The notes under the pieces were generated by a model. It had not been told where the DNA came from, ran no database searches, and saw nothing but the letters and a program-made list of their open reading frames with translations. Position numbers and translations under genes: made by a program. Shown here in pieces: positions 19,080-50,090 of a DNA stretch of 64,000 nucleotides. Within the stretch, counting starts at the first letter, position 1. Each line of letters begins with the position of its first letter. The DNA is taken from the IMG/VR virus record IMGVR_UViG_2974624538_000001, positions 46,771-110,770 of that record; one strand, written 5' to 3'. Source of the DNA: a virus (Duplodnaviria; Heunggongvirae; Uroviricota; Caudoviricetes).

Positions 19080-19438
19080 TGTCTGAGTGGGATTGGCCAC
19101 TTGAGTCATTTAAGGATGAGCCTGACAAGATTGAGAAGCATTATGCTGAACGAGCTAAGTCAGGCTTTTCCACATTTGACTGGTGGAATTTTGATACGTA
19201 CATTGCTGGTGTTATTGGCCGGGCTGTGAGAGAATTCTCAGATGGTCACGGATACCATAGTGACTTCAGCAACATGGAAGATTTTGCGGAGTTCTGCAAG
19301 ACAATCTACGAACCCCTTGAGTTTTACGCTAGCAGGGAATACAGTAGACTTAAGTTTGACGAACAGGCAGTCAAGTATGAAGAGGCTGTCGAAGCAATGA
19401 AGAAGTTTTCCGAGCGTCTAGGCGCTTGGTGGGACTGA
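19079..19438 (+). CDS. hypothetical protein
   Basis: ORF, start overlaps upstream stop. Confidence 0.5.
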   Translation: MSEWDWPLESFKDEPDKIEKHYAERAKSGFSTFDWWNFDTYIAGVIGRAVREFSDGHGYHSDFSNMEDFAEFCKTIYEPLEFYASREYSRLKFDEQAVKYEEAVEAMKKFSERLGAWWD

Positions 19439-19439
19439 C

Positions 19440-19469
19440 TTGACAACCCCAGTCGTCAAGTGGTAAGGT
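19440..19469 (+). promoter_or_regulatory. sigma70-like promoter TTGACA-N18-TAAGGT with -35 inside inverted repeat TTGAC...GTCAA
   Basis: seen immediately upstream of the tRNA-like/Y RNA cluster. Confidence 0.35.
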
Positions 19470-19516
19470 AGTAACACGTCAGAAGCCTTCGGAAGACGTT
19501 AAAACATCCGGGCTCT

Positions 19517-19590
19517 TGCTCGCTAGCACAATTGGCAGTTGCACTCCGCTCTGGACGGAGAGGTTCCAGGTTCGAATCCTGGGCGGGCAG
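19517..19590 (+). tRNA. tRNA-like element, possibly tRNA-Gln(CTG) (non-canonical D-arm)
   Basis: acceptor TGCTCGC/GCGGGCA, anticodon arm CTCCG-CTCTGGA-CGGAG, T-arm CCAGG-TTCGAAT-CCTGG; flanked by an ATATCC motif. Confidence 0.4.
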
Positions 19591-19642
19591 CAATTGGGTT
19601 AAGGACATATCCATCGGTGAGAATCCGTAAAAACTGTCCCAT

Positions 19643-19713
19643 ATCTCAGAGCGTAGGTTGTGTCGGTCGGTCTCCAAAACCGACTCGTGAGAGTTCGAAT
19701 CTCTCCTGGGGTG
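19643..19713 (+). tRNA. tRNA-like element, possibly tRNA-Trp(CCA) (D-arm does not fold canonically)
   Basis: acceptor ATCTCAG/CTGGGGT (wobble-rich), anticodon arm TCGGT-CTCCAAA-ACCGA, T-arm GAGAG-TTCGAAT-CTCTC. Confidence 0.4.
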
Positions 19714-19845
19714 CTTGACTTCCAAGTCTTGGAGGTGCTACGATGGTATACAAGTTGAAGGCATTGTTCTTCAAGTTCCGCCCGGTGGTTGACAAGCTGC
19801 TGAGTAGATGGTACGTTAGAAGAACAAAGTAAGCAGCAAGCTTTC

Positions 19846-19962
19846 GGGTCGGCTGGATGAGGGTTATCTAACCTAAATTATACAACAGTCAATGGTAATT
19901 CCTGGTGGATTCCAGGGAGTGTGGTGACTATAACACTATCTCCCTCGCCTACAACATATCCG
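19846..19962 (+). ncRNA. Y RNA-like element 1
   Basis: 5' GGGTCGGCTGGATG...GGTTATCT...3' ACATATCCG shared framework; AAGCTT ends 2 nt upstream; internal hairpin TTCCTGG/CCAGGGA. Confidence 0.55.
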
Positions 19963-19989
19963 AAATGTTTTACAGCGCTTAGGCGCTAT

Positions 19990-20064
19990 TGGGGTGTAGC
20001 TCGGTCTGGTTAGAGCATTCCGCTGATAACGGAACGGTCGTGGGTTCAAATCCCACCGCCCCAA
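19990..20064 (+). tRNA. tRNA-Ile(GAT)
   Basis: acceptor TGGGGTG/CGCCCCA, D GCTC-GGTCTGGTTA-GAGC, anticodon arm TTCCG-CTGATAA-CGGAA, T GTGGG-TTCAAAT-CCCAC. Confidence 0.75.
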
Positions 20065-20070
20065 CTTTAT

Positions 20071-20202
20071 GGGTCGGATTCAATAGTTTAACTTAAATCC
20101 AAACCGCGTGTCCTAGGTTCGAATCCTAGTCCCGGCTTTCAAGTCGGGGTAGCTCAGTGGCAGAGCAGTGGTCATTAAAAACACTATTGAAACAACATAT
20201 CC
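20071..20202 (+). ncRNA. Y RNA-like element 2 with tRNA-like module (YrlA-like)
   Basis: 5' GGGTCGGAT...3' ACATATCC; internal T-arm CCTAGG-TTCGAAT-CCTAG and an acceptor/D-arm-like GGGGTAGCTCAGTGGCAGAGC segment. Confidence 0.55.
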
Positions 20203-20222
20203 ATGAAAAACTTAAAATTTGC

Positions 20223-20358
20223 GGGTCGGATGAATTCAGTTATCTTCCTACCATAAATCAGAAAGTCAAGGTTCGACTCCTTGAAGGGGTGAATGAGAGA
20301 GGTCTCAGCTAGCCTGAACAGTTAGTGAATCCCACTTCTGAATTCAATATTATATCCG
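20223..20358 (+). ncRNA. Y RNA-like element 3 with tRNA-like T-arm
   Basis: GGGTCGGATGAATTCAGTTATCT...CTGAATTCAATATTATATCCG terminal stem (GAATTCAG/CTGAATTC 8 bp); internal CAAGG-TTCGACT-CCTTG. Confidence 0.6.
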
Positions 20359-20368
20359 CAAAAGCTTT

Positions 20369-20462
20369 GGGTCGGATGGAAATCTTTATCATAAGTTCAA
20401 CTCTTATCATCCCCCCTCATGGGGATGGGGCGTGGTGCCCACTGGTTTACTGCAACATACCC
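20369..20462 (+). ncRNA. Y RNA-like element 4
   Basis: GGGTCGGATGG...TTTATC...ACATACCC; AAGCTT ends 1 nt upstream. Confidence 0.5.
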
Positions 20463-20468
20463 AATTAT

Positions 20469-20552
20469 GGAGGCGCTAACATCGGCGGCGTGGAACGGTC
20501 TTGAAAACCGTACGTTCGAAAGGACGTGTGAGTTCGAATCTCACCGCCTCCG
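20469..20552 (+). tRNA. tRNA-Ser(TGA)
   Basis: acceptor GGAGGCG/CGCCTCC, anticodon arm ACGGT-CTTGAAA-ACCGT, long variable arm, T GTGAG-TTCGAAT-CTCAC. Confidence 0.7.
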
Positions 20553-20573
20553 CTTTACCCTAAGGAGTAAAGT

Positions 20574-20759
20574 ATGACTGAGACAGAGAATGTCGGTCCT
20601 ACTTCGTATCAGCTAGCAATCATCCTTGCACTTCAGAGCAAGCATGTCTATGCTAATACAGTTAGTTACGAAGAGATTGCACGACGACGTAAGGCAAGCA
20701 AGCGAGCGCGGCTTCAGCGCAGAGTAAACAGAAGGCTTGACACGACACGTCGCTCGTGA
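20574..20759 (+). CDS. hypothetical small basic protein
   Basis: ORF with TAAGGAG RBS. Confidence 0.4.
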   Translation: MTETENVGPTSYQLAIILALQSKHVYANTVSYEEIARRRKASKRARLQRRVNRRLDTTRRS

Positions 20760-20851
20760 TAAGGTTTTATTAGTGCAGGGGAATTGATTGACCAATGGTC
20801 AGGCAAGAAGCACGCGGGTTCTTCATCATCCCGTCCCCATAAAATGAATAT

Positions 20852-20928
20852 GCGCCGTGGGGCTGCTAGGTTGTGGCCACTGCCCTGTCAAGGCAGACAT
20901 CAGGCGGGTTCGATTCCCGTACGGCGCG
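20852..20928 (+). tRNA. tRNA-Asp(GTC)
   Basis: acceptor GCGCCGT/ACGGCGC, anticodon arm CTGCC-CTGTCAA-GGCAG, T CGGG-TTCGATT-CCCG. Confidence 0.7.
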
Positions 20929-20956
20929 CTTTCGTAAATGAACAAAAGGAGTTCTG

Positions 20957-21157
20957 ATGGCACGAGTTAAGAAGTTCGACCTTGTTGAGCTTGACAAGGA
21001 CGGGTGGTTCTCTGCTAAGGTTAGTGGAAAGTTCCGGGGTTTGGTCGAGAAGACTGGTCGTAGCAACTACACACTTCACCTTGGCAAGAATGATGTGACA
21101 AACTTCAAGACTAAGAAGGCTCTTGAGACGTGGCTCACCGAGAAGTGGGCATCTTAA
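20957..21157 (+). CDS. hypothetical protein
   Basis: ORF with AAAGGAG RBS. Confidence 0.45.
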   Translation: MARVKKFDLVELDKDGWFSAKVSGKFRGLVEKTGRSNYTLHLGKNDVTNFKTKKALETWLTEKWAS

Positions 21158-21178
21158 ACAATTGAATATTTAGCGTTC

Positions 21179-21239
21179 GGGTCGGATGCAATCGCTTATC
21201 TATTATGGGAATATAAACGCGATTGCTCTAACATATCCG
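21179..21239 (+). ncRNA. Y RNA-like element 5 (minimal form)
   Basis: GGGTCGGATG-CAATCGC-TTATCT...-GCGATTG-CTCTAACATATCCG. Confidence 0.5.
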
Positions 21240-21251
21240 TTCTAAACTTCT

Positions 21252-21408
21252 AGCCCCTAATGATTTCGGGTCGGATGTTTCTTGGTTATCTTACTGTGAA
21301 TGAGGAGTTCTGGGTTCGAATCCCAGCGGGTCCACTCTTGGGCCTGTAGTTTAACTGGCAAAACGTAAACCCGAGGAACGCTTATATATCCGTCATATCA
21401 TTAGGGGC
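21252..21408 (+). ncRNA. Y RNA-like element 6 with tRNA-like T-arm and extended terminal stem
   Basis: core GGGTCGGATG...GGTTATCT...ATATATCCG (21268-21392) enclosed by a perfect 13-bp inverted repeat AGCCCCTAATGAT/ATCATTAGGGGCT; internal CTGGG-TTCGAAT-CCCAG. Confidence 0.6.
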
Positions 21409-21415
21409 TAAGCTT

Positions 21416-21622
21416 TTGTCTAGAAAAGGAGAGACAATGCCTCGCTACGAGAAGAAGCCGAAGATTAACGCAAACCTTGTGAAGAAGTTTGATGAGGAGT
21501 ATTACCGCGTACTTGACGATGTGCAGATGCGTGCGCTAAAGTTCAAGGGCAACGTGCGGCCGGAAGGCAAGGTTGTTGAAACCAAGACGCACATCATCAG
21601 TTATTACATTGAGGTGGATTAA
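21416..21622 (+). CDS. hypothetical protein
   Basis: ORF with AAAAGGAGAG RBS. Confidence 0.45.
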   Translation: MSRKGETMPRYEKKPKINANLVKKFDEEYYRVLDDVQMRALKFKGNVRPEGKVVETKTHIISYYIEVD

Positions 21623-21988
21623 ATGCTGAACTGGCTAGGCCAGGACGTAAAGGTAGGCTCTGTGGTTTTTCGCGGGGCTAGGCAAGGCAACTCTTCCAGT
21701 CACAAGATTGGTGTGGTAGAGTCTATCAATGAGAAGACACGCAAGGCGCGGGTTGCATGGAAGTATGAATGTGGTGTCCAGTGGATTCGTCCAGCACAAG
21801 GACAGTCATACTACCTTGAGTGTCCATACAAGTTGAGTGATAAGTCAAAGGGAAATCCTGACGTCGGTCCTCTTGTGGTTGTTCCTCATGGTCTGCTAAC
21901 ATCAGCAGAGAACATGATTAAGGGTGCGGAGATGGCTAAGGCTCAGAATGTTCCAGCCGATGAAATTGACAATTTCATTCAGGTCTAA
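21623..21988 (+). CDS. hypothetical protein (KOW-like N-terminus)
   Basis: VKVGSVVFRGARQGN...HKIGVVESI resembles the small KOW-like paralogue family. Confidence 0.45.
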   Translation: MLNWLGQDVKVGSVVFRGARQGNSSSHKIGVVESINEKTRKARVAWKYECGVQWIRPAQGQSYYLECPYKLSDKSKGNPDVGPLVVVPHGLLTSAENMIKGAEMAKAQNVPADEIDNFIQV

Positions 21989-22059
21989 AATTTAATAGCC
22001 GGTAATACCGGCAAGCTTCCATAAACAATATGCCCAGAATGGGCCGAAAGGATTAGAAA

Positions 22060-23676
22060 ATGTCTAATGCACTTGGTAAGTTTGCTGCTTCTCAGAAGCA
22101 GGACCGTGTTTCTACTCCTCAGACAAAGCGTACCCCTGGTCGCACGGATGAGGTAAAGAACAACGCGGGCGGGTTTGTGTTCAAGGTAGACGACAAGTCT
22201 CGCCTTGAGCGATTCCTGGTTCTTGGTACTGACAAGGGTACCTACTACGTTGGTGAGCAGAAGTTGACGGCTCAGAACATTTCCTTCCTGAAGGAGATGG
22301 TCCGTAAGGATGAGCGTCTGGTCGTGGACACTGCTGTTGACGTCTCTGTAAATGGTCGTGCGCTTAAGAATTCTCCTGCGCTCTTCGCTATGGCTACGGT
22401 TATGACGGAGGGTCAGGATAAGGCTTACGCTCGTGAGGCCGTTCAGAAGGTTGCTCGTACTTCTACCCACCTGTTCGAGTACGCACAGTACATCGATGAC
22501 CTTGGTGGTTGGGGTCGTGCAAAGCGTCGTTCTGTCGCTGAGTGGTACGAGAACAAGTCTCTGGATATGCTTGCATACCAGGCTGTCAAGTACCGTCAGA
22601 GGAATGGTTGGACGCACCGTGACCTGTTCCGTCTGTCTCATCCTCAGGGTGTGGACCAGGGCGTTGGCAACTTCATCCTTGGCAAGGACGTAGAGTCTGA
22701 GGTGGAAATTCTTAAGGGCTTCGCTGAGATGCAGTCTGCGACTTCGGTCAAGGATGTTATCAGGACGCTGGAGACTTTTAGGAACCTTCCTTGGGAGACC
22801 ATTCCTACTCAGTTCCTCAAGGACGTGAAGGTGTGGAAGACTCTCTTCTACAATGGTCAGCTTCGTGGCCAGGCTCTCATTCGTAACATCACTCGACTCG
22901 CTCGAATTGGTGCGTTTGATGACATGGTTTTCGCAACTGACTACGCGAATGCAATTGCTAACCAGGAAATGATTCAGAAGACTCGTCTTCACCCAATCAA
23001 CTTCCTGAATGCGGTTGTTGTTCACGAGTACGGTCAGATTGACCGTAACGGTTACAGCATGTGGAGTGCCGGACGTAAGAAGGATTGGAAGTCTAATGGA
23101 AAGATTGTGGATGCTCTCAATGAGGGATTCCACATGGCATTCAAGACTGTCGAGCCTTCTGGCAAGAGGACTCTCGTTGCAACTGACGTTTCTGGCTCCA
23201 TGAGTCAGAGCGCCATCGGACTTGACCTTTCTTGCGCTCAGGTTTCTGCGGCTGTTGCCATGACGGTTGCTCGCACTGAGCCTTACAGTGACATTGTTGG
23301 CTTCTCTAGCAGCATTGTTGACTTGGGCATTACCGCTAAGAGTTCTTTTGCCGACGCAATGCGTAAGGTGAGTAACAGGAACTTCGGTGGTACGGATGCG
23401 GCTGCTGCAATTAAGTACGCTGACCAGAAGGGAATTCAGGTTGACACCTTCGTTGTTATCACTGATAACGAGACGTGGGGCGGAAGCCAGAAGCCTTTCC
23501 AGGCACTTAAGCAGTACCGTCAGAAGACCGGAATTGATGCGCGTCTTGCGGTTCTCGGTGTGGCGTCTACGGACTTCACCATCGCTGACCCTACGGACCG
23601 TGGAATGATGGACTTCGTTGGTTTCGATGCAAATGCGCCTAAGGCCCTCGCGGACTTCAGCGCTGGTCGTATCTGA
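22060..23676 (+). CDS. rsr: Ro60-like ribonucleoprotein (TROVE domain plus C-terminal vWA/MIDAS), Rsr orthologue
   Basis: 538 aa; TROVE-like N-terminal region; vWA with MIDAS DVSGSM...TDNETWGG; adjacent to the Y RNA-like array. Confidence 0.8.
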   Translation: MSNALGKFAASQKQDRVSTPQTKRTPGRTDEVKNNAGGFVFKVDDKSRLERFLVLGTDKGTYYVGEQKLTAQNISFLKEMVRKDERLVVDTAVDVSVNGRALKNSPALFAMATVMTEGQDKAYAREAVQKVARTSTHLFEYAQYIDDLGGWGRAKRRSVAEWYENKSLDMLAYQAVKYRQRNGWTHRDLFRLSHPQGVDQGVGNFILGKDVESEVEILKGFAEMQSATSVKDVIRTLETFRNLPWETIPTQFLKDVKVWKTLFYNGQLRGQALIRNITRLARIGAFDDMVFATDYANAIANQEMIQKTRLHPINFLNAVVVHEYGQIDRNGYSMWSAGRKKDWKSNGKIVDALNEGFHMAFKTVEPSGKRTLVATDVSGSMSQSAIGLDLSCAQVSAAVAMTVARTEPYSDIVGFSSSIVDLGITAKSSFADAMRKVSNRNFGGTDAAAAIKYADQKGIQVDTFVVITDNETWGGSQKPFQALKQYRQKTGIDARLAVLGVASTDFTIADPTDRGMMDFVGFDANAPKALADFSAGRI

Positions 23677-23731
23677 AACACTGGGGGGTGAAGAGAAATC
23701 TTCACCCCCCAAGCTTGTTTTAAGGAGACGA

Positions 23732-24946: not shown

Positions 24947-25019
24947 AGTCCCGTAGCTCAGGGGATAGAGCGTCACACTGCGGATGTGAAGGTCGGAGGT
25001 TCGAATCCTCTCGGGACTG
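24947..25019 (+). tRNA. tRNA-Arg(GCG)
   Basis: acceptor AGTCCCG/CGGGACT, D GCTC-AGGGGATA-GAGC, anticodon arm TCACA-CTGCGGA-TGTGA, T GGAGG-TTCGAAT-CCTCT. Confidence 0.6.
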
Positions 25020-25161
25020 CGTTAGCGAGTGTTAGCCTAGCTTATTTTTGGCGGGTAGCATAAGCCATTAATAGGCAAGACACAATGTGAAAAGGATAGA
25101 CCATGCTACAGTCTCCTGAGTAACTAGTAGGAAATAGGTCTCCAAGGTGCGCTAACACCAT

Positions 25162-25235
25162 GCCCCAGTAATGGCCCGGTCTTCTAAACCAGAGGTGCAT
25201 AACGGATGATGCTGGTTCGAATCCAGTCTGGGGTG
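25162..25235 (+). tRNA. tRNA-like element, anticodon/D region non-canonical (identity undetermined)
   Basis: acceptor GCCCCAG/CTGGGGT and T-arm GCTGG-TTCGAAT-CCAGT are clear; the middle does not fold as a standard D/anticodon arm. Confidence 0.35.
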
Positions 25236-25381
25236 CGTGGAACGTAAACTAACTATCTATTACGAATCCAATTCACAAATCGATGAAGACGCTCTGTTTG
25301 AGCACATTCATCGATTCTTTTGTGAAAATCCGGAAGACCCGGATGTGGACAACTGTCCTCTGTATGCCATGACAGCTCAGA

Positions 25382-26008
25382 ATGTATTGGACTAAGAATA
25401 ATATGAGTGGTAGGATACTCCTAAGAAGAAAATTTAGGAGGACTGAGTTGCCTAAGAGAAAGTTTTTTTATGATACCGAATTCCATGAGGATGGTAAGAC
25501 GATTGACTTGATTTCAATTGGCATTGTTCGTGGAGACGGTAAGGAATACTATGCGGTATCATCTGATGCAGATTATCGCAGGGTGTTCGAGAATACATGG
25601 CTAATGAACCATGTAATGAATACTATCGACCATGTAGTGGTTGAAGACATTAATCATGGTGGATATACAATCATTCCAACAGGGCCTTTCGTAAAGACAC
25701 GTGAACAAATTCGAGATGAAATTATCGAATTTGTTATGGAAAGTCAGGACGAATTCCATGACCCTCATGGAGAAGCAAAGGCTGAACTGTGGGCCTGGTA
25801 TGCTGATTATGACCATGTAGCGCTCTGTCAGCTCTTTGGTAAAATGATTGATTTGCCTACCGGATTCCCGATGTTTACAAGAGATTTGAGACAGCATTGG
25901 GAATACAAGGGATATCCAGAGCTGCCAAGGCAGTCTGATGGAGAGCACAACGCGCTTGACGATGCACGCCACAATCTGGTAATGTATAAGTACATGGAAG
26001 GTCTGTGA
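25382..26008 (+). CDS. DEDDh 3'-5' exo(ribo)nuclease (RNase T/oligoribonuclease-like)
   Basis: ExoI FYDTEFHEDG, ExoII WAWYADYDHVAL, ExoIII HNALDDARHNLVMY. Confidence 0.65.
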   Translation: MYWTKNNMSGRILLRRKFRRTELPKRKFFYDTEFHEDGKTIDLISIGIVRGDGKEYYAVSSDADYRRVFENTWLMNHVMNTIDHVVVEDINHGGYTIIPTGPFVKTREQIRDEIIEFVMESQDEFHDPHGEAKAELWAWYADYDHVALCQLFGKMIDLPTGFPMFTRDLRQHWEYKGYPELPRQSDGEHNALDDARHNLVMYKYMEGL

Positions 26009-26155
26009 GCGTCATGGAAGAGTATACACTAACTTTGCAGTTGACTGTAAAGATTGAGGCACCTGACGCAGGAGACGCACTAGACGTTGCTCTCGACAAT
26101 TTTGGCAAGGGTTGCGCGGGTGGCGTTGATGTGGTAGAGTATGAGGTGTTGAAGA

Positions 26156-26362
26156 TTGCTGAACCTAAGTGACCTAGAAAACCAAGGGCTGACTGTAAAG
26201 AAGTTCTGTGGGCTAGACATTCAAGAAAATGTGGGTTGCACTGGAGAGGCTGTAGGTGATATTGTTGCAGAGATGGAAGATGGAATGCAAATTCCAATCC
26301 CAGTCTGCCAGCAGCACCTAGATGTAATTCAGTCACATTTTGATGTTGAAAGTCTAGGTTGA
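26156..26362 (+). CDS. hypothetical protein
   Basis: ORF. Confidence 0.3.
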   Translation: MLNLSDLENQGLTVKKFCGLDIQENVGCTGEAVGDIVAEMEDGMQIPIPVCQQHLDVIQSHFDVESLG

Positions 26363-26388
26363 CACACACCAAGACTCTTGCTATGATA
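26359..26388 (+). promoter_or_regulatory. sigma70-like promoter TTGACA-N18-TATGAT
   Basis: about 13 nt upstream of tRNA-Ala. Confidence 0.5.
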
Positions 26389-26400
26389 GAAGAGTCAATG

Positions 26401-26474
26401 GGGGCTTAGCTCATCGTAGGTAGAGCACTTGCCTTGCAAGCAAGAGGTGGCCGGTTCGAGCCCGGCAGTCTCCA
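26401..26474 (+). tRNA. tRNA-Ala(TGC)
   Basis: acceptor GGGGCTT with G3:U70, anticodon arm CTTGC-CTTGCAA-GCAAG, T GCCGG-TTCGAGC-CCGGC. Confidence 0.7.
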
Positions 26475-26509
26475 CTGGTCATATTTGACCTACAAGGAGG
26501 TGGACAGCT

Positions 26510-26569
26510 ATGCTGTACACACTACTAGTAATCTTGGTAATCATCGTTATCTTGATGCTGATTTTCTAA
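26510..26569 (+). CDS. 19-aa hydrophobic micropeptide MLYTLLVILVIIVILMLIF
   Basis: AAGGAGG RBS 7 nt upstream of ATG; wholly hydrophobic. Confidence 0.3.
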   Translation: MLYTLLVILVIIVILMLIF

Positions 26570-26580
26570 GGAGGGTTGGC

Positions 26581-26670
26581 ATGAGAGGTAGCGACGTAGT
26601 ATGGACAATCGCAGGAGTTCTTATCTGTATTGCTCTTGTCGTATGGCTTGCAGATAATGTGAGCTTCTGA
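26581..26670 (+). CDS. 29-aa hydrophobic micropeptide MRGSDVVWTIAGVLICIALVVWLADNVSF
   Basis: TAAGGAGGG RBS; single TM helix. Confidence 0.35.
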   Translation: MRGSDVVWTIAGVLICIALVVWLADNVSF

Positions 26671-26780
26671 TAGAGTAAAGCTAAACGGCCACGATGGAGG
26701 TCAAGGTAATCAGGAAGTTGGCTATGGATTGCCGGAAGTTCGAGACGCGGAGCCAAACCTACGTCGAACAATCCATCAAT

Positions 26781-26853
26781 GCTCCGGTAGCTCAGTTGGC
26801 AGAGCAGGCGGCTCTTAACCGTCGTGTCGGGAGTTCAAGTCTCCCTCGGAGTA
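26781..26853 (+). tRNA. tRNA-Lys(CTT)
   Basis: acceptor GCTCCGG/TCGGAGT, D GCTC-AGTTGGCA-GAGC, anticodon arm GGCGG-CTCTTAA-CCGTC, T GGGAG-TTCAAGT-CTCCC. Confidence 0.65.
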
Positions 26854-26865
26854 CGTAAAATTAAA

Positions 26866-26896
26866 ACACCCCCGTTAGTTTCTGGCGGGGGTTTTC
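26866..26896 (+). terminator. rho-independent terminator
   Basis: ACCCCCGttagtttctgGCGGGGGTTTT. Confidence 0.6.
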
Positions 26897-26921
26897 CATT
26901 TAATAAAACAAAGGAGAAAAA

Positions 26922-27722
26922 ATGTTCGGTCGTCGCAAGGCTTTCGTCGCTGATAACTCTAAGCGTGTCCTCAAGACTGTTAAGGTTGTCAAGCGTGACC
27001 CTTCTGTCGCCGCTGCACCTGTTGACCTTATTAAGAAGGTTGGTGTTTCTTTCGAGAAGAAGGTTGAGTCTGCTGTTAACCTGAACAAGAATGTTAGTGG
27101 TCCTTCTCGCGGTGTTGTGTGGAATGTAATTGGTCTGCTCGATGAGTCTTACTCTATGGACCCGTTCTTCTATGATGGTACTGTTCAGGAGATTGTTGAC
27201 CGTGTGCTTGCGTGGTCTGCCTCGGTTGATGCTGATGGTCTGGTGCCCTTTGGCGGGTTTGCTAACAGTCACGTTTGGCATGGTGACGTTGACCTGACGA
27301 ACGTTAATAACGTCGTTCAGACGAATAACTGGTCCCCGTGGGGCGGTACGAATCTCGCTGACTCTCTCAAGGCTATCCTTGACATGGTTAAGGATATGGG
27401 AGATGCTTGGCAGGAGAACCCCATCCTTCTCTTCATCGTGACGGATGGTATGCCTCAGAATCAGGGTCTTGTGAAGCAGTACATTCAGGAGCTTTCTCAG
27501 TATCCTGTGTTCATCAAGATTCTTCGGGTTGGCAATGACCTCGGTGCCAAGGCTTTCGTTGAGGACCTTGACAACATGACCACCGGTCGTCTTGTGGATA
27601 ATGTTGAGGCTCCGGATGATGGTCTTTACAAGGGTATGCCCGACGATGCGTTTAATGCTGCTATGATTCATGACATGGACAAGTACGTGAATGACGCAAC
27701 TGCGGTGGGTCTTCTCAGTTGA
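26922..27722 (+). CDS. von Willebrand factor A (vWA) domain protein
   Basis: MIDAS DESYSMD...GGTN...TDGMP; TerY-like layout. Confidence 0.6.
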   Translation: MFGRRKAFVADNSKRVLKTVKVVKRDPSVAAAPVDLIKKVGVSFEKKVESAVNLNKNVSGPSRGVVWNVIGLLDESYSMDPFFYDGTVQEIVDRVLAWSASVDADGLVPFGGFANSHVWHGDVDLTNVNNVVQTNNWSPWGGTNLADSLKAILDMVKDMGDAWQENPILLFIVTDGMPQNQGLVKQYIQELSQYPVFIKILRVGNDLGAKAFVEDLDNMTTGRLVDNVEAPDDGLYKGMPDDAFNAAMIHDMDKYVNDATAVGLLS

Positions 27723-27748
27723 CAAGCCTGAGCTTGTCATGTAGTATA
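27720..27748 (+). promoter_or_regulatory. sigma70-like promoter TTGACA-N17-TAGTAT; -35 within palindrome TTGACAAGC..GCTTGTCA
   Basis: about 28 nt upstream of tRNA-Met. Confidence 0.5.
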
Positions 27749-27776
27749 TAAGAACAAGGCGTCGAGAGACGCTGTG

Positions 27777-27850
27777 GCGGTATAGCTCAGTTGGTCAGAG
27801 CGTTCCCCTCATAAGGGAAAGGCCACTGGTTCGAGTCCAGTTGCCGCTAC
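27777..27850 (+). tRNA. tRNA-Met(CAT), elongator type
   Basis: acceptor GGCGGTA/TGCCGCT, anticodon arm TTCCC-CTCATAA-GGGAA, T ACTGG-TTCGAGT-CCAGT. Confidence 0.65.
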
Positions 27851-27851
27851 T

Positions 27852-27925
27852 GCGCGGTAGTGAAGTTCGGTTATCACGCGGGGCTCATAATCCCGTATCG
27901 TGGGTTCAAATCCCACCTGCGCCAC
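27852..27925 (+). tRNA. tRNA-fMet(CAT), initiator type
   Basis: unpaired 1:72 (T1 x C72), three consecutive G:C pairs in anticodon stem (GGGG-CTCATAA-TCCC), D GTGA/TCAC. Confidence 0.6.
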
Positions 27926-27926
27926 G

Positions 27927-27998
27927 GTCCTTTAGCTTAGTTGGTAAAGCGGTCGGTTGAAGCCCGATAGTCTACGGTTCGATTCCGTGAGGGACCAC
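27927..27998 (+). tRNA. tRNA-Phe(GAA)
   Basis: acceptor GGTCCTT/AGGGACC, anticodon arm GTCGG-TTGAAGC-CCGAT, T ACGG-TTCGATT-CCGT. Confidence 0.7.
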
Positions 27999-28284
27999 AT
28001 GGTTAATACAAATAAGAAACCATTGCACAAGGCTCAGTCTAGAATTGAGGCAGATGCATGGATTGCGAGTATTGGAAAGAGTCAGTATCCTGGTGAGAAG
28101 CTAATTGTTCATCGTCAGGGTAACGAGTGGCACGTCTATAAGGGGTAAAAATGGGAATCTTCAGCAAGAGTCCAAAGCCTGTTTCGACGGGTGATGATTC
28201 AACGCCAGAAGAGAAGGCAGACCAGAAGTTGAAGTTTGCTACCGCATCTGCTAGGTTTGGTCCAGTAGGAAGGCGAGACAAGAC

Positions 28285-28479
28285 ATGGCAAGAGCAGAGC
28301 AAGTGACGGTTTATGATGAAGTCATTGAGCGAATGGCAGTCAAGCTAGGCTTGACAGTCCAGGAGGTTGATGCCATCATGGACATGTACACGGAAGAGTC
28401 CAAGCAAGTTCACATTGAACGAGGTCACATTCGGCCGGATTCAAGGCTTGCATCCACACAACGCACTGTGGTAAGGTAA
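28285..28479 (+). CDS. hypothetical protein
   Basis: ORF. Confidence 0.3.
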   Translation: MARAEQVTVYDEVIERMAVKLGLTVQEVDAIMDMYTEESKQVHIERGHIRPDSRLASTQRTVVR

Positions 28480-28649
28480 ATACATGAACAGAGAGCAGTA
28501 CGAAAAGTTCAAGGAACGAGCGAAGAATGCTGGTCTCCACCTAGATAAGGATGGTTTCCAAAAGCACATGGAAGAGATTATGTCGAATCCGTCTGCTAGA
28601 GTGAACTATCTGAATCTAATGAAGTAAGTAAAACGCCCGAAAGGGCAAT

Positions 28650-28735
28650 GGATGGATAACACGTAATTGGTAGCGTCGCGGCCTGTAAAGCCGTTGTCCG
28701 AAAGGGCTCTGGGGGTTCAAGTCCCTCTCCATCCA
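28650..28735 (+). tRNA. tRNA-Tyr(GTA)
   Basis: acceptor GGATGGA/TCCATCC, anticodon arm CGGC-CTGTAAA-GCCG, long variable arm, T GGGGG-TTCAAGT-CCCTC. Confidence 0.65.
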
Positions 28736-28737
28736 CT

Positions 28738-28810
28738 GTGACTGTAGCATAACGGCTAATGCACTGCGTTGTGGTCGCAGCCAATGCGGGTTCGAGTCCC
28801 GTCAGTCACC
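28738..28810 (+). tRNA. tRNA-His(GTG)
   Basis: acceptor GTGACTG/CAGTCAC with C73, anticodon arm CTGCG-TTGTGGT-CGCAG. Confidence 0.7.
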
Positions 28811-28812
28811 CC

Positions 28813-28884
28813 GGTCCTTTGTTGCGAGTGGTTAGCAATCGGTCTGCAAAACCGAATACGTCGGTTCGAATCCGACAAGGGCCT
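28813..28884 (+). tRNA. tRNA-Cys(GCA)
   Basis: acceptor GGTCCTT/AAGGGCC with U73, anticodon arm TCGGT-CTGCAAA-ACCGA, T GTCGG-TTCGAAT-CCGAC. Confidence 0.7.
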
Positions 28885-29250
28885 CTATACATTCCCCACC
28901 TGAATGTAGAAGGTAACCGAAAGTGTAAAAGTCAGCTAACTGACTGCCTGTGTAAGTGGAACGGGACTCCTCTAGCAGGGAGATTGAAACCATAGGGAAT
29001 AGCCCGTATAGACCTATGGCACCACGGACTACGATGTGCTAGCATTGGTGGTGGTTCCGGGGAAGAGTCTAGTCAACTCCAACTGGGTATTATGCAATGA
29101 GGTGTTTCACCAGTCGTCACCTTGTAAATCTAGGCTGGAGCGACTAATTTAAGTTAGGGGCGGTAAGCCCAGACCTTAAAGAATGGCCGGGATAGTGCAT
29201 CCTGTCGCGCAAGCACTCTAGAGCGTAGGCTAGTTAAACCTACGCATCAT

Positions 29251-29325
29251 TCCCTCGTAGCTCAATGGCAGAGCAGAGAGCTGTTAACTCTAAGGTTGTT
29301 GGTTCGAGTCCAGCCGGGGGAGCCA
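29251..29325 (+). tRNA. tRNA-Asn(GTT), CCA encoded
   Basis: acceptor TCCCTCG/CGGGGGA, D GCTC-AATGGCA-GAGC, anticodon arm GAGAG-CTGTTAA-CTCTA, 3' GCCA. Confidence 0.75.
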
Positions 29326-29576
29326 CACGCACAGAATTGGGAAAAGAACGGATTTGGAAGCCATGTAATAACCTAGGTAAAGATGGTGAAAGATGAAGGG
29401 GAGATACTGAAGAGCGGTGCGCCAAGACTATTATCCTGGTTAGGCACCCGCGTGGGACCACTTCAAATTTTACGGCATCGGTTGAATGCCCACAAAGGAT
29501 AACTCGTATATCCTGGTAGACGCGCTTTCGCGGCGGGTTATCTGAATGTAAAGGAGTCACGCCCAATCAACCACTT

Positions 29577-29647
29577 GCCTCTATGGTGTAAGGGATGCAC
29601 AATGGTCTTCGGAACCATTAGTCCGGGTTCGAATCCTGGTGGGGGTA
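29577..29647 (+). tRNA. tRNA-Arg(TCG)
   Basis: acceptor GCCTCTA/TGGGGGT (wobble pairs), anticodon arm ATGGT-CTTCGGA-ACCAT, T CCGGG-TTCGAAT-CCTGG. Confidence 0.6.
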
Positions 29648-29648
29648 C

Positions 29649-29828
29649 ATGGCAAAGGAAGTGTATGTCGGGGCTCAAATCCTTATTCTTTCTGGACCTT
29701 ATGATGGTCAGATGGCTACGGTAGAAAGAATTGACCGTAGAAAGGATGTTTGGGCAAAGATTAATAGAGGAAGTGACGCTGGTGAAAAGACTAGAGTCAC
29801 TAAGGGAAACTATAAGGTGGTAGCATAA
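29649..29828 (+). CDS. small KOW-like protein (59 aa)
   Basis: MAKEVYVGAQILILSGPYDGQMATV... KOW-like GxxV.I..G..xG pattern; below the ORF-track cutoff. Confidence 0.4.
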   Translation: MAKEVYVGAQILILSGPYDGQMATVERIDRRKDVWAKINRGSDAGEKTRVTKGNYKVVA

Positions 29829-30004
29829 TGCCAACTGTAAAGGTAGGCGAGATTGTGAAAATCACCGGTGGACAGCGTTCAGGAAATAAGGCTAAGGTCT
29901 TGGCTAACCTGAACGCTTTTGCTATTAAGGCACAAATTATCGGTGGTAAGTACGATGGATTGATTCTGAACAATGTTAGATTCAATCACTATGAGAAGGC
30001 TTGA
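29828..30004 (+). CDS. small KOW-like protein (58 aa)
   Basis: MPTVKVGEIVKITGGQRSGNKAKV...; paralogous to the preceding ORF. Confidence 0.4.
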   Translation: MPTVKVGEIVKITGGQRSGNKAKVLANLNAFAIKAQIIGGKYDGLILNNVRFNHYEKA

Positions 30005-30055
30005 CACAAGCATCACCATGATGTAAGGTATAAGCACAGACAAACAGTCTGTGTC

Positions 30056-30127
30056 TGTTCCTGAAGTTCAACGGATGAACAACTCCCTCCTAAGGAGTAG
30101 GCTGCTGGTTCGAATCCAGTCAGGAAC
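30056..30127 (+). tRNA. tRNA-Arg(CCT)
   Basis: acceptor GTTCCTG/CAGGAAC, D GTTC-AACGGAT-GAAC, anticodon arm ACTCC-CTCCTAA-GGAGT, T GCTGG-TTCGAAT-CCAGT. Confidence 0.7.
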
Positions 30128-30223
30128 ACTTTACAAGACACGGGGGCTTGGCCCGTCCCCCAATCATGAGTCTTGGGCTCTCGTCCATAGAGAGTTTATA
30201 GTTAACGGGCCTGCCAAGCTATG

Positions 30224-30393: not shown

Positions 30394-30661
30394 AGGGCCT
30401 GCTTGGTTTCGACTTTGCTGGACGGGATATAGACGCAACCCTTCTTGGTCAAAGAAGTAAAACGGGCCAAAACAATAGATGCAAATTCTAACTTTGCTCT
30501 CGCTGCGTAAGTAGCCGGATTTGTCGGGAACCTTGGAACAGAATCCCGACTAGACAAAATGTGTAGATAATGTGTAAGACCCTTCAGTGTGATTGACAAT
30601 GGTTGTAGAACGGATATATGCTAGATAGTGAAGGACAGGGGTTCGACTCCCCTCAGGTCCA
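30394..30661 (+). ncRNA. ssrA: tmRNA (SsrA), tag peptide (A)ANSNFALAA
   Basis: 5' GGGCCTGCTTGGTTTCGAC and 3' GGTTCGACTCCCCTCAGGTCCA form a tRNA-Ala-like acceptor with G3:U70; internal frame GCA AAT TCT AAC TTT GCT CTC GCT GCG TAA (30481-30510) encodes ANSNFALAA-stop. Confidence 0.75.
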
Positions 30662-30678
30662 CACAGAAAGATACGGTA

Positions 30679-36933: not shown

Positions 36934-37206
36934 ATGATGGATTACGAAAAGATTATTGATGGATATAATGACCTTCGTGAGACATGTCTTGTCATCGCTA
37001 AGCTTAACGATGAGTTGATGGGTCCAGACAGATGGTTGAAGTTTGCCATCCAAGACTCAGACATCACGTTGATGTTTACAGAGCGAGGCGTTGTGTGCTA
37101 TGGTAGTGCTTACACGACACAGACGATGGACAACGAACACTTCAGTTTCATGATTCCGTTCGAGTATCTAGAGGAGTTTGAGGCAAATGCTAGAGATGGT
37201 GATTAA
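36934..37206 (+). CDS. hypothetical protein
   Basis: ORF after hairpin+AAGCTT+GGAGG. Confidence 0.45.
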   Translation: MMDYEKIIDGYNDLRETCLVIAKLNDELMGPDRWLKFAIQDSDITLMFTERGVVCYGSAYTTQTMDNEHFSFMIPFEYLEEFEANARDGD

Positions 37207-44159: not shown

Positions 44160-44316
44160 TGACGGTTGCAGAATTGATTGCGAAGTTGCAGACGTATCAC
44201 AACCAGGATGCTAAGGTTAAGGTTCTTGTTGATGACGGATGTGGTTGTTGTTCAAGTGGGGGAACCTACGAGGACATTGATGTTGATGTAGTTGATGGAG
44301 AAATCCGGATTTCATG
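44160..44316 (+). CDS. hypothetical small protein (51 aa)
   Basis: TAAGGAGG RBS after hairpin+AAGCTT. Confidence 0.35.
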
Positions 44317-44363
44317 ATACACTAGCCTCTACGGAGGCAAGCTTCCTAACGAAAGGAGAAATA

Positions 44364-49848: not shown

Positions 49849-49879
49849 GTTGACGAGACAGCGCAACATGTGTTAGTAT
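49849..49879 (+). promoter_or_regulatory. sigma70-like promoter TTGACG-N19-TAGTAT driving Y RNA-like element 7
   Basis: -10 hexamer ends about 6 nt before the Y RNA 5' end. Confidence 0.5.
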
Positions 49880-49884
49880 AGATA

Positions 49885-49970
49885 CATCGGGTCGGAGGAA
49901 AGACGGTTATCTTTCATTTGGCGAAAATCGCGGGAATGCCCGCTTTCCGTCTTCCACACCATATCCGATG
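49885..49970 (+). ncRNA. Y RNA-like element 7
   Basis: CATCGGGTCGGAGG...GGTTATCT...CCATATCCGATG terminal stem, inner stem GGAAAGACGG/CCGTCTTCC, hairpin GCGGGaatgCCCGC. Confidence 0.6.
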
Positions 49971-49974
49971 TAAT

Positions 49975-50047
49975 GCGGGTGTAACTCAATTGGCAGAGTG
50001 CTAGCCTTCCAAGCTAGATGTTGCCGGTTCGACCCCGGTCACCCGCT
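49975..50047 (+). tRNA. tRNA-Gly(TCC)
   Basis: acceptor GCGGGTG/CACCCGC with U73, D ACTC-AATTGGCA-GAGT, anticodon arm CTAGC-CTTCCAA-GCTAG. Confidence 0.75.
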
Positions 50048-50059
50048 CGGAACGAATAC

Positions 50060-50090
50060 CCCGCTAGTAAAAACTGGCGGGGTTTCGTTA
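50060..50090 (+). terminator. rho-independent terminator
   Basis: CCCCGCtagtaaaaactgGCGGGGTTTCGTTATTT. Confidence 0.55.

What the first reader, a model, noticed from the sequence alone, without database searches (positions are those of the whole stretch)
19440..23676. Phage Ro60 (Rsr) gene beside a multi-copy Y RNA-like array interleaved with tRNAs
A 538-aa ORF (22060-23676) has the Ro60 architecture: a TROVE-like N-terminus plus a C-terminal vWA domain with a DVSGSM MIDAS motif. Immediately upstream are at least six non-coding elements (19846, 20071, 20223, 20369, 21179, 21252), with a seventh at 49885. They share a 5' GGGTCGGATG(N4-8)TTATCT and a 3' (A)CATATCC(G) that can pair into a bulged terminal stem. 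As far as I recall, this resembles the Ro-binding stem of Y RNAs (human hY1 begins GGCUGGUCCGAAGG...GUUAUCUC). Three copies carry an internal T-arm (GGTTCGAATCC) and acceptor/D-arm-like segments, i.e. the tRNA-mimic module described for bacterial YrlA. One is a minimal 61-nt stem-hairpin. One has its own TTGACG/TAGTAT promoter. This many distinct Y RNA paralogues beside rsr inside a phage tRNA island looks unusual.
Basis: partly seen in the sequence, partly recalled or inferred. Interest (0 to 1): 0.9.

Follow-up and report, generated by a model that had tools for sequence, protein, structure and literature searches.

The report
Phage Ro60 with seven Y RNAs
Streptomyces phage Gilson carries a Ro60 RNA-binding protein gene and seven unannotated small Y RNA genes threaded among its tRNA genes, a larger version of a known RNA quality-control system rather than a new kind of system.

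Summary
The window is Streptomyces phage Gilson. ORF 22060-23676 is a clear Ro60/Rsr protein: Pfam TROVE 1.5e-36, Ro60-type vWA 3.4e-56, and D. radiodurans Rsr in the PDB at 1e-99. The repeats are real. A covariance model built only from elements of other phage genera finds exactly seven full-length matches in the window (27.5-55.4 bits, E 2e-5 to 3e-13). The next hit scores 12 bits, and the rest of the genome has none. All seven share a 5-bp closing stem whose first pair covaries, an invariant C/U plus G/A mismatch module, a covarying upper stem, and UUAUC. This matches the GNCGAA and YUAY signature of bacterial YrlA/YrlB Y RNAs. E2 and E6 carry a complete circularly permuted tRNA mimic (T arm, acceptor-like hairpin, D arm). 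E4 has a degenerate one, E3 a T arm only, and E1, E5 and E7 none. In related loci 77 of 78 matches lie upstream of Ro60 on its strand, in arrays of two to seven. Phage Ro60 with Y RNAs is already described (mycobacteriophages, Thermus phage phiLo). This is therefore a new, unusually expanded member of a known kind. Expression and Ro60 binding are untested.

The parts
22060..23676 (+). Ro60/Rsr orthologue (Gilson gp106), 538 aa. It has a TROVE ring domain plus a Ro60-type vWA domain with MIDAS motif DVSGS.
   Evidence: Pfam TROVE 1.5e-36 and vWA_Ro60 3.4e-56. PDB 2nvo Rsr 1.1e-99, 9nen Ro60 3.4e-88 and 1yvp Ro60 1.4e-86. PHROG 850 'RNA-binding protein' 1.4e-98. Translation. GenBank product 'Ro-like RNA binding protein'.
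19845..19962 (+). Y RNA E1, 118 nt. It has the Ro-binding module with an apical region of two hairpins that is not tRNA-like.
   Evidence: Model R2 37.5 bits, E 3e-8. Alifold of orthologues. The 5' strand is CGGGUCGGCUGGAUGAGGGUUAUCU and the 3' end is ACAUAUCCG.
20070..20203 (+). Y RNA E2, 134 nt, YrlA type. It is a full circularly permuted tRNA mimic: T arm, 7-bp acceptor-like hairpin, D arm and a 5-bp anticodon-stem equivalent. It starts 5 nt after tRNA-Ile.
   Evidence: R2 33.5 bits, E 4e-7. Rfam YrlA 30.8 bits, below the gathering score. In alifold, 14 of 21 pairs show compensatory changes. ARAGORN calls a tRNA after permutation and 0 of 300 shuffles.
20222..20358 (+). Y RNA E3, 137 nt. 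It has an invariant T arm (AGGUUCGACUCCU) plus a branched stem and no D arm.
   Evidence: R2 55.4 bits, E 3e-13. Alifold. The upper stem GAAUUCAG/CUGAAUUC covaries with Patelgo and Sham.
20368..20463 (+). Y RNA E4, 96 nt. It is a degenerate mini tRNA mimic: a T-like hairpin (loop UUCAACU), an 8-bp hairpin and a GGGC-GUGGU-GCCC hairpin. It ends 5 nt before tRNA-Ser.
   Evidence: R2 27.5 bits, E 2e-5. Alifold. The permuted construct is called a tRNA by ARAGORN. A compensatory change C-G to G-C occurs at the top of the upper stem.
21178..21239 (+). Y RNA E5, 62 nt. This is the minimal form: closing stem, conserved module, an 8-bp upper stem and an A/U-rich loop.
   Evidence: R1 66 bits. R2 51.3 bits, E 4e-12. 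Fold z-score -2.35.
21267..21392 (+). Y RNA E6, 126 nt, YrlA type. It has a T arm, an 8-bp acceptor-like hairpin, a D arm and a long variable-arm-like hairpin, resembling a class II tRNA.
   Evidence: R2 46.1 bits, E 1e-10. Rfam YrlA 27.4 bits, partial. Alifold. ARAGORN calls the permuted construct a tRNA.
21251..21410 (+). Outer helix that encloses E6. The arms are 21251-21264 and 21397-21410 (14 bp). It is either a candidate processing stem or an extension of the terminal stem.
   Evidence: Perfect inverted repeat. Four positions show compensatory changes across Patelgo, L005, Sham and L007.
49888..49967 (+). Y RNA E7, 80 nt, short type with one GC hairpin. It lies 27.8 kb downstream of the Ro60 start.
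   Evidence: R1 34.1 bits. R2 48.2 bits, E 3e-11. Syntenic orthologues occur in Phredrick, Patelgo and Sham, each before tRNA-Gly(tcc), with different but complementary upper stems.
49850..50083 (+). Apparent E7 transcription unit: promoter-like TTGACG-18-TAGTAT (49850-49879), E7, tRNA-Gly(tcc) 49975-50048, and a terminator-like hairpin with T run at 50058-50083.
   Evidence: pattern scans only; tRNA.
19517..20929 (+). tRNA genes interleaved with the array: Gln 19517-19591, Trp 19643-19714, Ile 19990-20065, Ser 20469-20553, Asp 20852-20929. Spacers to the neighbouring Y RNAs are 4-8 nt.
   Evidence: ARAGORN, Rfam and junction sequences.
23682..23711 (+). Terminator-like hairpin (13 bp) with a T run, directly after the Ro60 stop codon.

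Best explanation
The locus encodes a phage Ro60 ribonucleoprotein system: one Ro60 ring protein and seven paralogous Y RNAs.

Shown by computation:
- Each RNA closes on itself through a 5-bp stem (N-GGGU with AYCC-N').
- Above that stem sits an invariant asymmetric module, with C-G-R on the 5' strand facing Y-A-U on the 3' strand.
- Next comes a 7-10 bp upper stem of free sequence, and then UUAUC.

Inferred from the family:
- This module is the Ro60 docking site. It matches the GNCGAA(N)G plus YUAY signature of YrlA/YrlB and the GGUCCGA strand that Ro60 contacts in vertebrate Y RNA.
- The variable apical parts are the effector ends. E2 and E6 are complete tRNA mimics, E4 and E3 are partial ones, and E1, E5 and E7 are short hairpins or loops.
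- These ends would tether Ro60 to different partners. In Deinococcus and Thermus phage phiLo the partner is the exonuclease PNPase. Alternatively they could occupy tRNA-recognising enzymes.
- The RNAs are probably made as parts of tRNA-containing transcripts and freed by the tRNA-processing nucleases, because they sit 4-8 nt from tRNA ends. E7 appears to have its own promoter and shares a terminator with tRNA-Gly.
- The island also holds 31 tRNAs, a tmRNA, two RNA ligases, a kinase and a phosphoesterase. The system therefore most likely serves RNA quality control or repair, and protection of translation, during infection. This could include defence against host nucleases that cut tRNAs.
For: - Ro60 identity.
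- Seven and only seven elements: model R2, built without Gilson-like sequences, scores 27.5-55.4 bits on them, with the next hit at 12.1 bits. There are no hits in the other 64 kb of the genome.
- Structure: 83% of cells are paired against 66% in shuffles, and 135 double-change cells against 54, with 0 of 500 shuffles reaching the observed value. The closing pair is C-G 31 / U-A 22 / A-U 1 / U-G 1 and is never unpaired. The rival register shows no signal.
- Orthologue covariation.
- tRNA mimicry.
- Link to Ro60: all 98 matches in 816 kb are on the Ro60 strand. In loci centred on Ro60, 77 of 78 are upstream of it.
- Shared motif: YCGRA(N)G..UUAUC occurs 66 times on the sense strand, 7 on the antisense strand and about 7 in shuffles. 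It also occurs upstream of Ro60 genes only 36-42% identical, including bacterial ones.
- The same module is present in the three Y-like RNAs upstream of Ro60 in a Bxz1-type mycobacteriophage.
- Published signature, and Ro60 contacting mainly the 5' strand: PMC4201824.
- Phage Ro60 binding two upstream Y RNAs and host PNPase: PMC12135203.
- RNA repair genes in the window.
- Ro60 as an RNA repair platform in phages: PMC7824862.
- YrlA proposed as an inhibitor of an anticodon nuclease: PMC7790460.
Against: - There are no expression, end-mapping or binding data for any Streptomyces phage Y RNA.
- The Rfam YrlA model stays far below its gathering score (30.8 and 27.4 against 69), and the vertebrate Y_RNA model finds nothing.
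- The window copies carry GUCGGAUG, one base away from GNCGAA.
- In the Rfam YrlA consensus the C and G of the motif are drawn as Watson-Crick paired. Here they face U and A.
- E7 lies 27.8 kb from Ro60, outside the usual 4-kb neighbourhood.
- Invariance of the core columns in alignment A2 is partly imposed by the descriptor used to collect the sequences.
- The effector partners and the biological role are inference only.
Confidence: 0.8

Rival explanations
1. The repeats are processing or punctuation signals for the polycistronic tRNA/mRNA transcripts. They would be structured nuclease entry sites or transcript stabilisers with no dedicated binding to Ro60.
For: Elements abut tRNAs with 4-8 nt spacers. 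The junctions CUUUR and AAGCUUU are conserved. E6 is enclosed by a covarying outer helix that looks like a processing stem.
Against: Many tRNAs in the same island (for example those at 24947-30129) have no such element. The conserved module is the one shared by Ro60-linked RNAs in unrelated phages and bacteria, where no tRNA cluster is needed. Elements cluster upstream of Ro60, not evenly through tRNA islands.
Confidence: 0.07
2. The elements are decaying or permuted tRNA gene remnants, or a tRNA-derived repeat family, spread through the tRNA island with no function of their own.
For: T arms occur in four of the seven copies and D arms in two. Permuted constructs are called tRNAs by ARAGORN. 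One orthologue is annotated as a 62-nt tRNA in phage Sham.
Against: Three copies have no tRNA-like part yet keep the terminal module. Stems keep pairing through many compensatory changes across genera. Copies are syntenic rather than scattered. Native elements are not called tRNAs.
Confidence: 0.03
3. The elements act in cis as leader or attenuator structures that control expression of the downstream genes, including Ro60. One version would be Ro60 binding its own transcript.
For: E5 and E6 lie in the untranslated stretch before gp104-gp105-Ro60. The E6 outer helix is followed by a short U run.
Against: E7 is a separate unit followed by a tRNA and a terminator, far from Ro60. E1-E4 are flanked by tRNAs, not by coding genes. 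In L022 five copies stand in uninterrupted tandem, which is not typical for a leader.
Confidence: 0.05

Closest known systems
YrlA and YrlB Y RNAs of Salmonella Typhimurium, Mycobacterium smegmatis and mycobacteriophages (Chen et al. 2014, PMC4201824; Rfam RF02553)
   Same: They are encoded on the same strand just upstream of the Ro60 gene, and the terminal stem is formed by the two ends. They share the GNCGAA(N)G-like motif near the 5' end and a conserved YUAY after the upper stem. E2 and E6 have the T arm / acceptor-like hairpin / D arm order of YrlA. Short copies without a tRNA mimic parallel YrlB. A Bxz1-type mycobacteriophage shows the same G.U, N-N', C/U, G/A module.
   Different: There are seven paralogues per genome instead of one to three, and they are interleaved with real tRNA genes. 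The window copies have G instead of A at motif position 5. Rfam scores are 27-31 bits against a gathering score of 69, although the mycobacteriophage YrlA itself reaches only 36 bits. E6 has a long variable-arm-like hairpin and an outer covarying helix. One copy lies 28 kb away with its own promoter.
Thermus phage phiLo Ro60 with Yrl1 and Yrl2 (PMC12135203)
   Same: This is a phage-encoded Ro60 with Y RNA-like genes directly upstream. The RNAs were identified by a stem-bulge-stem shape and the CGAA motif. Binding to the phage Ro60 and to host PNPase was shown experimentally there.
   Different: phiLo has two RNAs rather than seven, and no tRNA island is reported. The host and phage lineage are unrelated. 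Nothing has been tested for the Streptomyces phage.
Deinococcus radiodurans Rsr - Yrn1 - PNPase complex (RYPER)
   Same: The Ro60 orthologue is closely similar in sequence (PDB 2nvo, 1e-99). The working model is that a Y RNA docks on Ro60 and uses its other end to tether an exonuclease.
   Different: Yrn1 has the opposite order of T- and D-like arms, as stated in PMC4201824. Any PNPase link for the phage is inference.
Vertebrate Y RNAs (human Y1, Y3, Y4, Y5; Rfam RF00019)
   Same: The 5' strand is collinear. Human Y1 reads GGCUGGUCCGAAGGUAGUGAGUUAUCUCA (PMC6052916) and E3 reads CGGGUCGGAUGAAUUCAGUUAUCUUC. Both have a lower stem, a conserved non-Watson-Crick module, an upper stem and then a loop.
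   Different: The Rfam model gives no hit at E<=10. Vertebrates have a bulged C, whereas the phage has tandem C/U and G/A oppositions. Vertebrate Y RNAs have no tRNA mimic. Their transcription (polymerase III) and 3' end biology also differ.
Salmonella rsr-yrlBA-rtcBA RNA repair operon, and T4-type tRNA healing and sealing (polynucleotide kinase plus RNA ligase)
   Same: Ro60 and Y RNAs are encoded together with RNA ligase, kinase and phosphoesterase functions (PMC7790460, PMC7824862).
   Different: The phage ligases are of the Rnl1 and Rnl2 type, not RtcB. The genes are 12-32 kb from Ro60 rather than in one operon. No RtcR-type regulator was seen.

Membership tests
Ro60 / Rsr protein | N-terminal TROVE (HEAT-repeat ring) domain | tested here: met
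   Pfam PF05731, E 1.5e-36, 127 bits against a cut-off of 23.
Ro60 / Rsr protein | C-terminal Ro60-type von Willebrand A domain with a MIDAS motif | tested here: met
   Pfam PF25045, E 3.4e-56, residues 370-533. DVSGS is at residues 376-380.
Ro60 / Rsr protein | Full-length similarity to structurally solved Ro60 proteins | tested here: met
   2nvo Rsr 1.1e-99 over residues 17-537. Vertebrate Ro60: 9nen 3.4e-88 and 1yvp 1.4e-86.
Ro60 / Rsr protein | Binds Y RNA and misfolded RNA | not testable with these tools
   This needs pull-down or gel-shift experiments.
Bacterial Y RNA (YrlA/YrlB class) | Encoded within about 4 kb of the Ro60 gene on the same strand | tested here: met
   E1-E6 lie 0.7-2.2 kb upstream on the + strand. 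In related loci 77 of 78 matches are upstream and all are on the same strand. E7 is the exception, 27.8 kb downstream.
Bacterial Y RNA (YrlA/YrlB class) | The 5' and 3' ends pair into a terminal stem | tested here: met
   The closing helix is 99.6% paired with 23 double changes at the first pair. The upper helix has all 8 pairs covarying. The rival register gives no signal.
Bacterial Y RNA (YrlA/YrlB class) | GNCGAAN0-1G motif near the 5' end | tested here: inconclusive
   Window copies read GUCGGAUG, GUCGGCUG, GUCGGAUU or GUCGGAGG, so G replaces A at position 5. Orthologues and paralogues in Sham, BE1-type phages and L038 read GUCGAAAG or GUCGAAUG, an exact match.
Bacterial Y RNA (YrlA/YrlB class) | Conserved YUAY after the upper stem | tested here: met
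   UUAU in six copies and UUAA in E2. The pattern is invariant TTA-(T/A/C)-C in 55 distinct elements, though this was partly imposed by the search descriptor.
Bacterial Y RNA (YrlA/YrlB class) | tRNA-like domain in the order T arm, acceptor-like hairpin, D arm (defines YrlA, not YrlB) | tested here: met
   Met for E2 and E6. Weakly met for E4. Not met for E3, which has a T arm only. Not met for E1, E5 or E7.
Bacterial Y RNA (YrlA/YrlB class) | Reaches the Rfam RF02553 gathering score | tested here: not met
   E2 scores 30.8 bits and E6 27.4 bits against 69. The published-type mycobacteriophage YrlA also fails at 36.1 bits, so this test does not discriminate for phage members.
Bacterial Y RNA (YrlA/YrlB class) | Bound by Ro60 in vivo, with tRNA-type base modifications | not testable with these tools
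   Experimental only.
Vertebrate Y RNA (Rfam RF00019) | Match to the family covariance model | tested here: not met
   No RF00019 hit at E<=10 in 19400-22100.
Vertebrate Y RNA (Rfam RF00019) | Conserved GGUCCGA 5' strand followed by an upper stem and UUAUC | tested here: inconclusive
   The motif YCGRA(N)G-N5-11-UUAUC is shared with human Y1. The bulged-C geometry is replaced by C/U and G/A oppositions.
tRNA | Cloverleaf in the normal order, detectable by tRNA finders | tested here: not met
   ARAGORN finds nothing in the native elements. It calls a tRNA only after circular permutation with an added anticodon loop.

The most novel reading that the evidence does not exclude
The seven Y RNAs may form an adaptor set that lets one phage Ro60 ring engage several different host or phage RNA enzymes. 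Under this reading the tRNA-shaped members would act as decoys or inhibitors for host nucleases that cut tRNAs. The array would then be a counter-defence module, matured together with the phage's own tRNAs by the tRNA-processing machinery.
Probability: 0.2. Interest if true: 0.8.

Novelty: new member of a known kind. Interest (0 to 1): 0.5.

Why it matters
What bacterial Ro60 and its Y RNAs do, and why Y RNAs mimic tRNA, is still largely open. This phage group offers one Ro60 gene with up to seven structurally distinct partner RNAs, ranging from a full tRNA mimic to a bare 62-nt stem-loop. They sit beside tRNA, tmRNA and RNA repair genes, and many sequenced relatives are available for comparison. 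That makes it practical to ask, by deletion and pull-down, what each type of Y RNA end contributes. The result also has a practical use. About 115 deposited Streptomyces phage genomes carry the Ro60 gene. None of the six annotated records inspected here lists these RNA genes, and one (Sham) mislabels a copy as a tRNA.

Tried and rejected
- Model R1 was built from 62-nt 'mini' constructs, each made of the 5' 32 nt plus the 3' 30 nt. It found only the short copies E5 and E7, because long apical inserts exceed the model's window. It was replaced by R2, which mixes mini and full-length sequences.
- The eighth pattern match at 57888 has no 3' partner and no R2 hit, so it is chance.
- A GGGTCGG upstream of tRNA-Lys in Patelgo and L005 looked like a Y stem enclosing a real tRNA. 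It is the spacer of a TTGACA-17-TAATAT promoter and is absent from the window.
- The alternative closing register CGGAU/AUCCG, which RNAalifold chose once flanks were added, shows no covariation and is no better than shuffles.
- A search for a shared promoter class (TTGACANCCCAGTC) was uninformative.
- AAGCTTT is not enriched window-wide.
- Pfam and PHROGs on the small neighbouring ORFs gp101, gp103, gp104, gp105, gp107 and gp108 gave nothing informative.
- At gathering thresholds, Rfam found no YrlA in the window or in ten distant Ro60 loci.
- The genome collection scan returned only one close relative, a contig binned as a cyanobacterial MAG that is probably phage. It therefore gave no view of host Streptomyces Ro60 loci.
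- The supplementary tables of Chen et al. 2014, which list copy numbers per phage, are not held.

Full report
**Identity of the window.** The region 19400-23700 is 100% identical to Streptomyces phage Gilson (MK061412, family Stanwilliamsviridae, genus Gilsonvirus; window position = record position minus 46770). The record annotates the 22060-23676 ORF as 'Ro-like RNA binding protein', plus five tRNAs and several small ORFs in this stretch. It annotates nothing at the positions of the repeats.

**The protein.** The 538-aa product matches Pfam TROVE (1.5e-36) and the Ro60-specific vWA domain (3.4e-56). It matches D. radiodurans Rsr (PDB 2nvo) at 1.1e-99 over almost its whole length, and vertebrate Ro60 at 1.4e-86 to 3.4e-88. 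The MIDAS motif DVSGS is present. A terminator-like hairpin follows the stop codon. The Ro60 assignment is secure.

**The repeats are real and number exactly seven.**
- I collected related elements from other Ro60-encoding phage loci using a descriptor. It gave 75 hits on the Ro60 strand and 1 on the other strand in about 0.75 Mb.
- From these I built covariance model R2 using only elements from phages outside the genus Gilsonvirus (alignment A9).
- With filters off, R2 finds seven full-length matches in the 64-kb window: 19845-19962, 20070-20203, 20222-20358, 20368-20463, 21178-21239, 21267-21392 and 49888-49967. They score 27.5-55.4 bits (E 2e-5 to 3e-13). The next hit scores 12.1 bits, E 0.44.
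- The rest of the Gilson genome has no match.

**Architecture.**
- On 55 distinct elements, the two-helix model is paired in 83% of cells against 66% in column shuffles. It has 135 cells with changes on both sides against 54, and 0 of 500 shuffles reach this. All slid controls are far lower.
- The two helices are columns 1-5 with 62-66 and columns 14-21 with 46-53.
- The closing pair is C-G in 31, U-A in 22, A-U in 1 and U-G in 1, and is never unpaired.
- The alternative register CGGAU/AUCCG is no better than chance.
- Between the helices, C6 always faces U61 and G7 always faces A60. Position 8 is mostly a purine facing a pyrimidine. This invariance is partly imposed by my descriptor.
- The same arrangement (G.U, a covarying N-N', then C/U and G/A) appears in the three Y-like RNAs upstream of Ro60 in mycobacteriophage ScottMcG. 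These were not collected with the descriptor.
- Orthologues show compensatory changes in the upper stems:
  - E3: GAAUUCAG/CUGAAUUC in Gilson, GAAUUCGG/CCGAGUUC in Patelgo, GUAUUCAG/CUGAAUGC in Sham.
  - E4: GGAAAUC/GGUUUAC in Gilson, GAAGACG/CGUUUUC in Phredrick.
  - E7: three different complementary stems.

**Relation to known Y RNAs.**
- Chen et al. 2014 define YrlA/YrlB by a 5' GNCGAAN0-1G motif and a conserved YUAY. They relate the motif to the vertebrate GGUCCGA strand that Ro60 contacts, mainly on the 5' strand.
- The window copies read GUCGGAUG...UUAU, one base off the motif. Relatives read GUCGAAAG or GUCGAAUG, an exact match.
- The combined motif YCGRA(N)G-N5-11-UUAUC occurs 66 times on the Ro60 strand of the loci, 7 times on the antisense strand and about 7 times in shuffles. 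It lies just upstream of Ro60 genes only 36-42% identical to this one, including bacterial ones.
- Human Y1 (GGCTGGTCCGAAGGTAGTGAGTTATCTCA; PMC6052916) fits the same motif. The Rfam Y_RNA model, however, finds nothing.
- The Rfam YrlA model gives 30.8 bits for E2 and 27.4 bits for E6 against a gathering score of 69. The YrlA of a Bxz1-type mycobacteriophage, the group in which phage YrlA was first reported, reaches only 36.1 bits. Failing that threshold therefore says little.

**Apical modules.**
- E2 orthologues keep an invariant T arm (GGUUCGAAUCC), a 7-bp hairpin with many compensatory changes, a D arm (GUAGCUCAGUGGCAGAGC) and an enclosing 5-bp stem.
- E6 is similar, with an 8-bp hairpin and an extra hairpin in the variable-arm position.
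- I opened the sequence at the acceptor-like loop and replaced the Y stem with a 7-nt loop. ARAGORN then calls tRNAs for E2, E6 and E4 and for the two relatives tested (the Sham E2 orthologue and BE1-type element L018:441-581). It calls none in 300 segment-wise shuffles of each window construct, and none in the native elements. The anticodon loop and CCA tail in these constructs are mine.
- E3 keeps a T arm and a branched stem but has no D arm.
- E1 has two hairpins. E5 is a bare 62-nt stem-loop. E7 has one GC hairpin.

**Genomic setting and likely maturation (inference).**
- All elements and all tRNAs are on one strand.
- tRNA-Ile ends 5 nt before E2. E4 ends 5 nt before tRNA-Ser. E7 ends 7 nt before tRNA-Gly.
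- The junction 'tRNA 3' end - CUUUR - Y RNA' recurs in BE1-type phages. AAGCUUU precedes several copies.
- E7 has a promoter-like site ending 8 nt before its first base. With tRNA-Gly it shares a terminator-like hairpin.
- E6 is enclosed by a 14-bp outer helix with four covarying positions.
- The RNAs are therefore probably released by the tRNA-processing nucleases and trimmed back to the terminal stem.

**Distribution.**
- R2 finds 98 matches (E<=0.01) in 816 kb of related loci, all on the Ro60 strand. In loci centred on Ro60, 77 of 78 are upstream.
- Copy numbers are 7 in Gilsonvirus phages, 6 in Sham, and 5 in L007/L024, L010, L022 (uninterrupted tandem) and L023. L038 has 3, and BE1-type phages have 1-2 within 6 kb.
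- tblastn finds the Ro60 gene in 115 Streptomyces phage records.

**Function (inference).**
- The window also encodes an Rnl1-type RNA ligase, a P-loop kinase, a second RNA ligase and a metallophosphoesterase. It further encodes a tmRNA and 31 tRNAs.
- The literature links Ro60 and Y RNAs to PNPase-dependent decay of structured RNA, to RNA repair operons, and possibly to inhibition of anticodon nucleases.
- A Listeria phage study reports three very abundant RNAs upstream of an Rsr-like gene.
- The most likely role is therefore RNA quality control or repair that protects translation during infection, with different Y RNAs giving Ro60 different partners.

**Novelty.**
- Literature searches found no description of Y RNAs in Streptomyces phages.
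- Phage Ro60 with Y RNAs is established for mycobacteriophages, CcrColossus, Bacillus phage G and Thermus phage phiLo.
- This is a new, expanded member of a known kind. It is of moderate interest as an experimental system and as an annotation gap.

Noticed in passing
L042:3318-3733 and L035:5624-5877: In two unrelated viral contigs (Ro60 36-39% identical), the RNAs just upstream of Ro60 are tRNA-shaped, with a normal 7-bp acceptor stem, D arm and T arm. Their anticodon arm is replaced by a long bulged hairpin carrying CCGAAUG...UUAUC, the Y RNA module. This is the same layout as YrlA, E2 and E6 but circularly permuted, with the ends at the acceptor stem.
   Followed up: partly
window 19838-19844, 20362-20368, 21410-21416: AAGCTTT sits directly 5' of E1 and E4 and directly 3' of the E6 outer helix. 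It is conserved in orthologues, and copies that follow a tRNA have CTTTR instead. It may be a processing site. The word is not enriched window-wide (10 found, 11.6 expected).
   Followed up: partly
L004:7290-7351 (phage Sham, ON645339): The deposited record annotates a 62-nt 'tRNA-Ser(cga)' that lies inside the E6 orthologue (L004:7284-7410). This is a mis-call of the tRNA-like module.
   Followed up: partly
L022:5364-5939: Five Y RNA elements stand in uninterrupted tandem directly before a Ro60 gene (62% identical) in a 76-kb viral contig.
   Followed up: partly
L053:3500-4000 (mycobacteriophage ScottMcG): Three Y-like RNAs lie in the 500 nt upstream of Ro60: two short ones and one YrlA type. 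All three end in CAUGUCU... pairing with their 5' ends. Rfam detects only the tRNA-like core of one of them, at 36 bits.
   Followed up: partly
window 35707-36774, 37178-37606, 44292-45143, 55685-56332: These ORFs form an RNA healing and sealing gene set on the same strand as the tRNA island: a T4 Rnl1-type RNA ligase, an AAA_33 kinase, a metallophosphoesterase and a second RNA ligase.
   Followed up: partly
window 30395-30664: The phage encodes a tmRNA (Rfam 82.5 bits; tag ANSNFALAA) within the tRNA island of 31 tRNA genes.
   Followed up: no
window 19715-19832: A promoter-like site, TTGACT-18-TACGAT with a TG extension (19715-19744), overlaps the start codon of the annotated 29-aa ORF gp98 (19743-19832). 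That ORF is not annotated in Patelgo and may be spurious. The site could drive the E1-tRNA-Ile-E2-E3-E4-tRNA-Ser stretch.
   Followed up: no
window 19643-19714: tRNA-Trp(cca) scores only 29.1 bits, right at the Rfam tRNA gathering score, and has a poorly matching D region.
   Followed up: no
window 19969-19988: A small GC hairpin (AGCGC-UUAG-GCGCU) lies between E1 and tRNA-Ile. It is present in Gilson, Phredrick and L007 but absent in Patelgo, Sham and L005, where E1 is followed by the tRNA after 6-8 nt.
   Followed up: no
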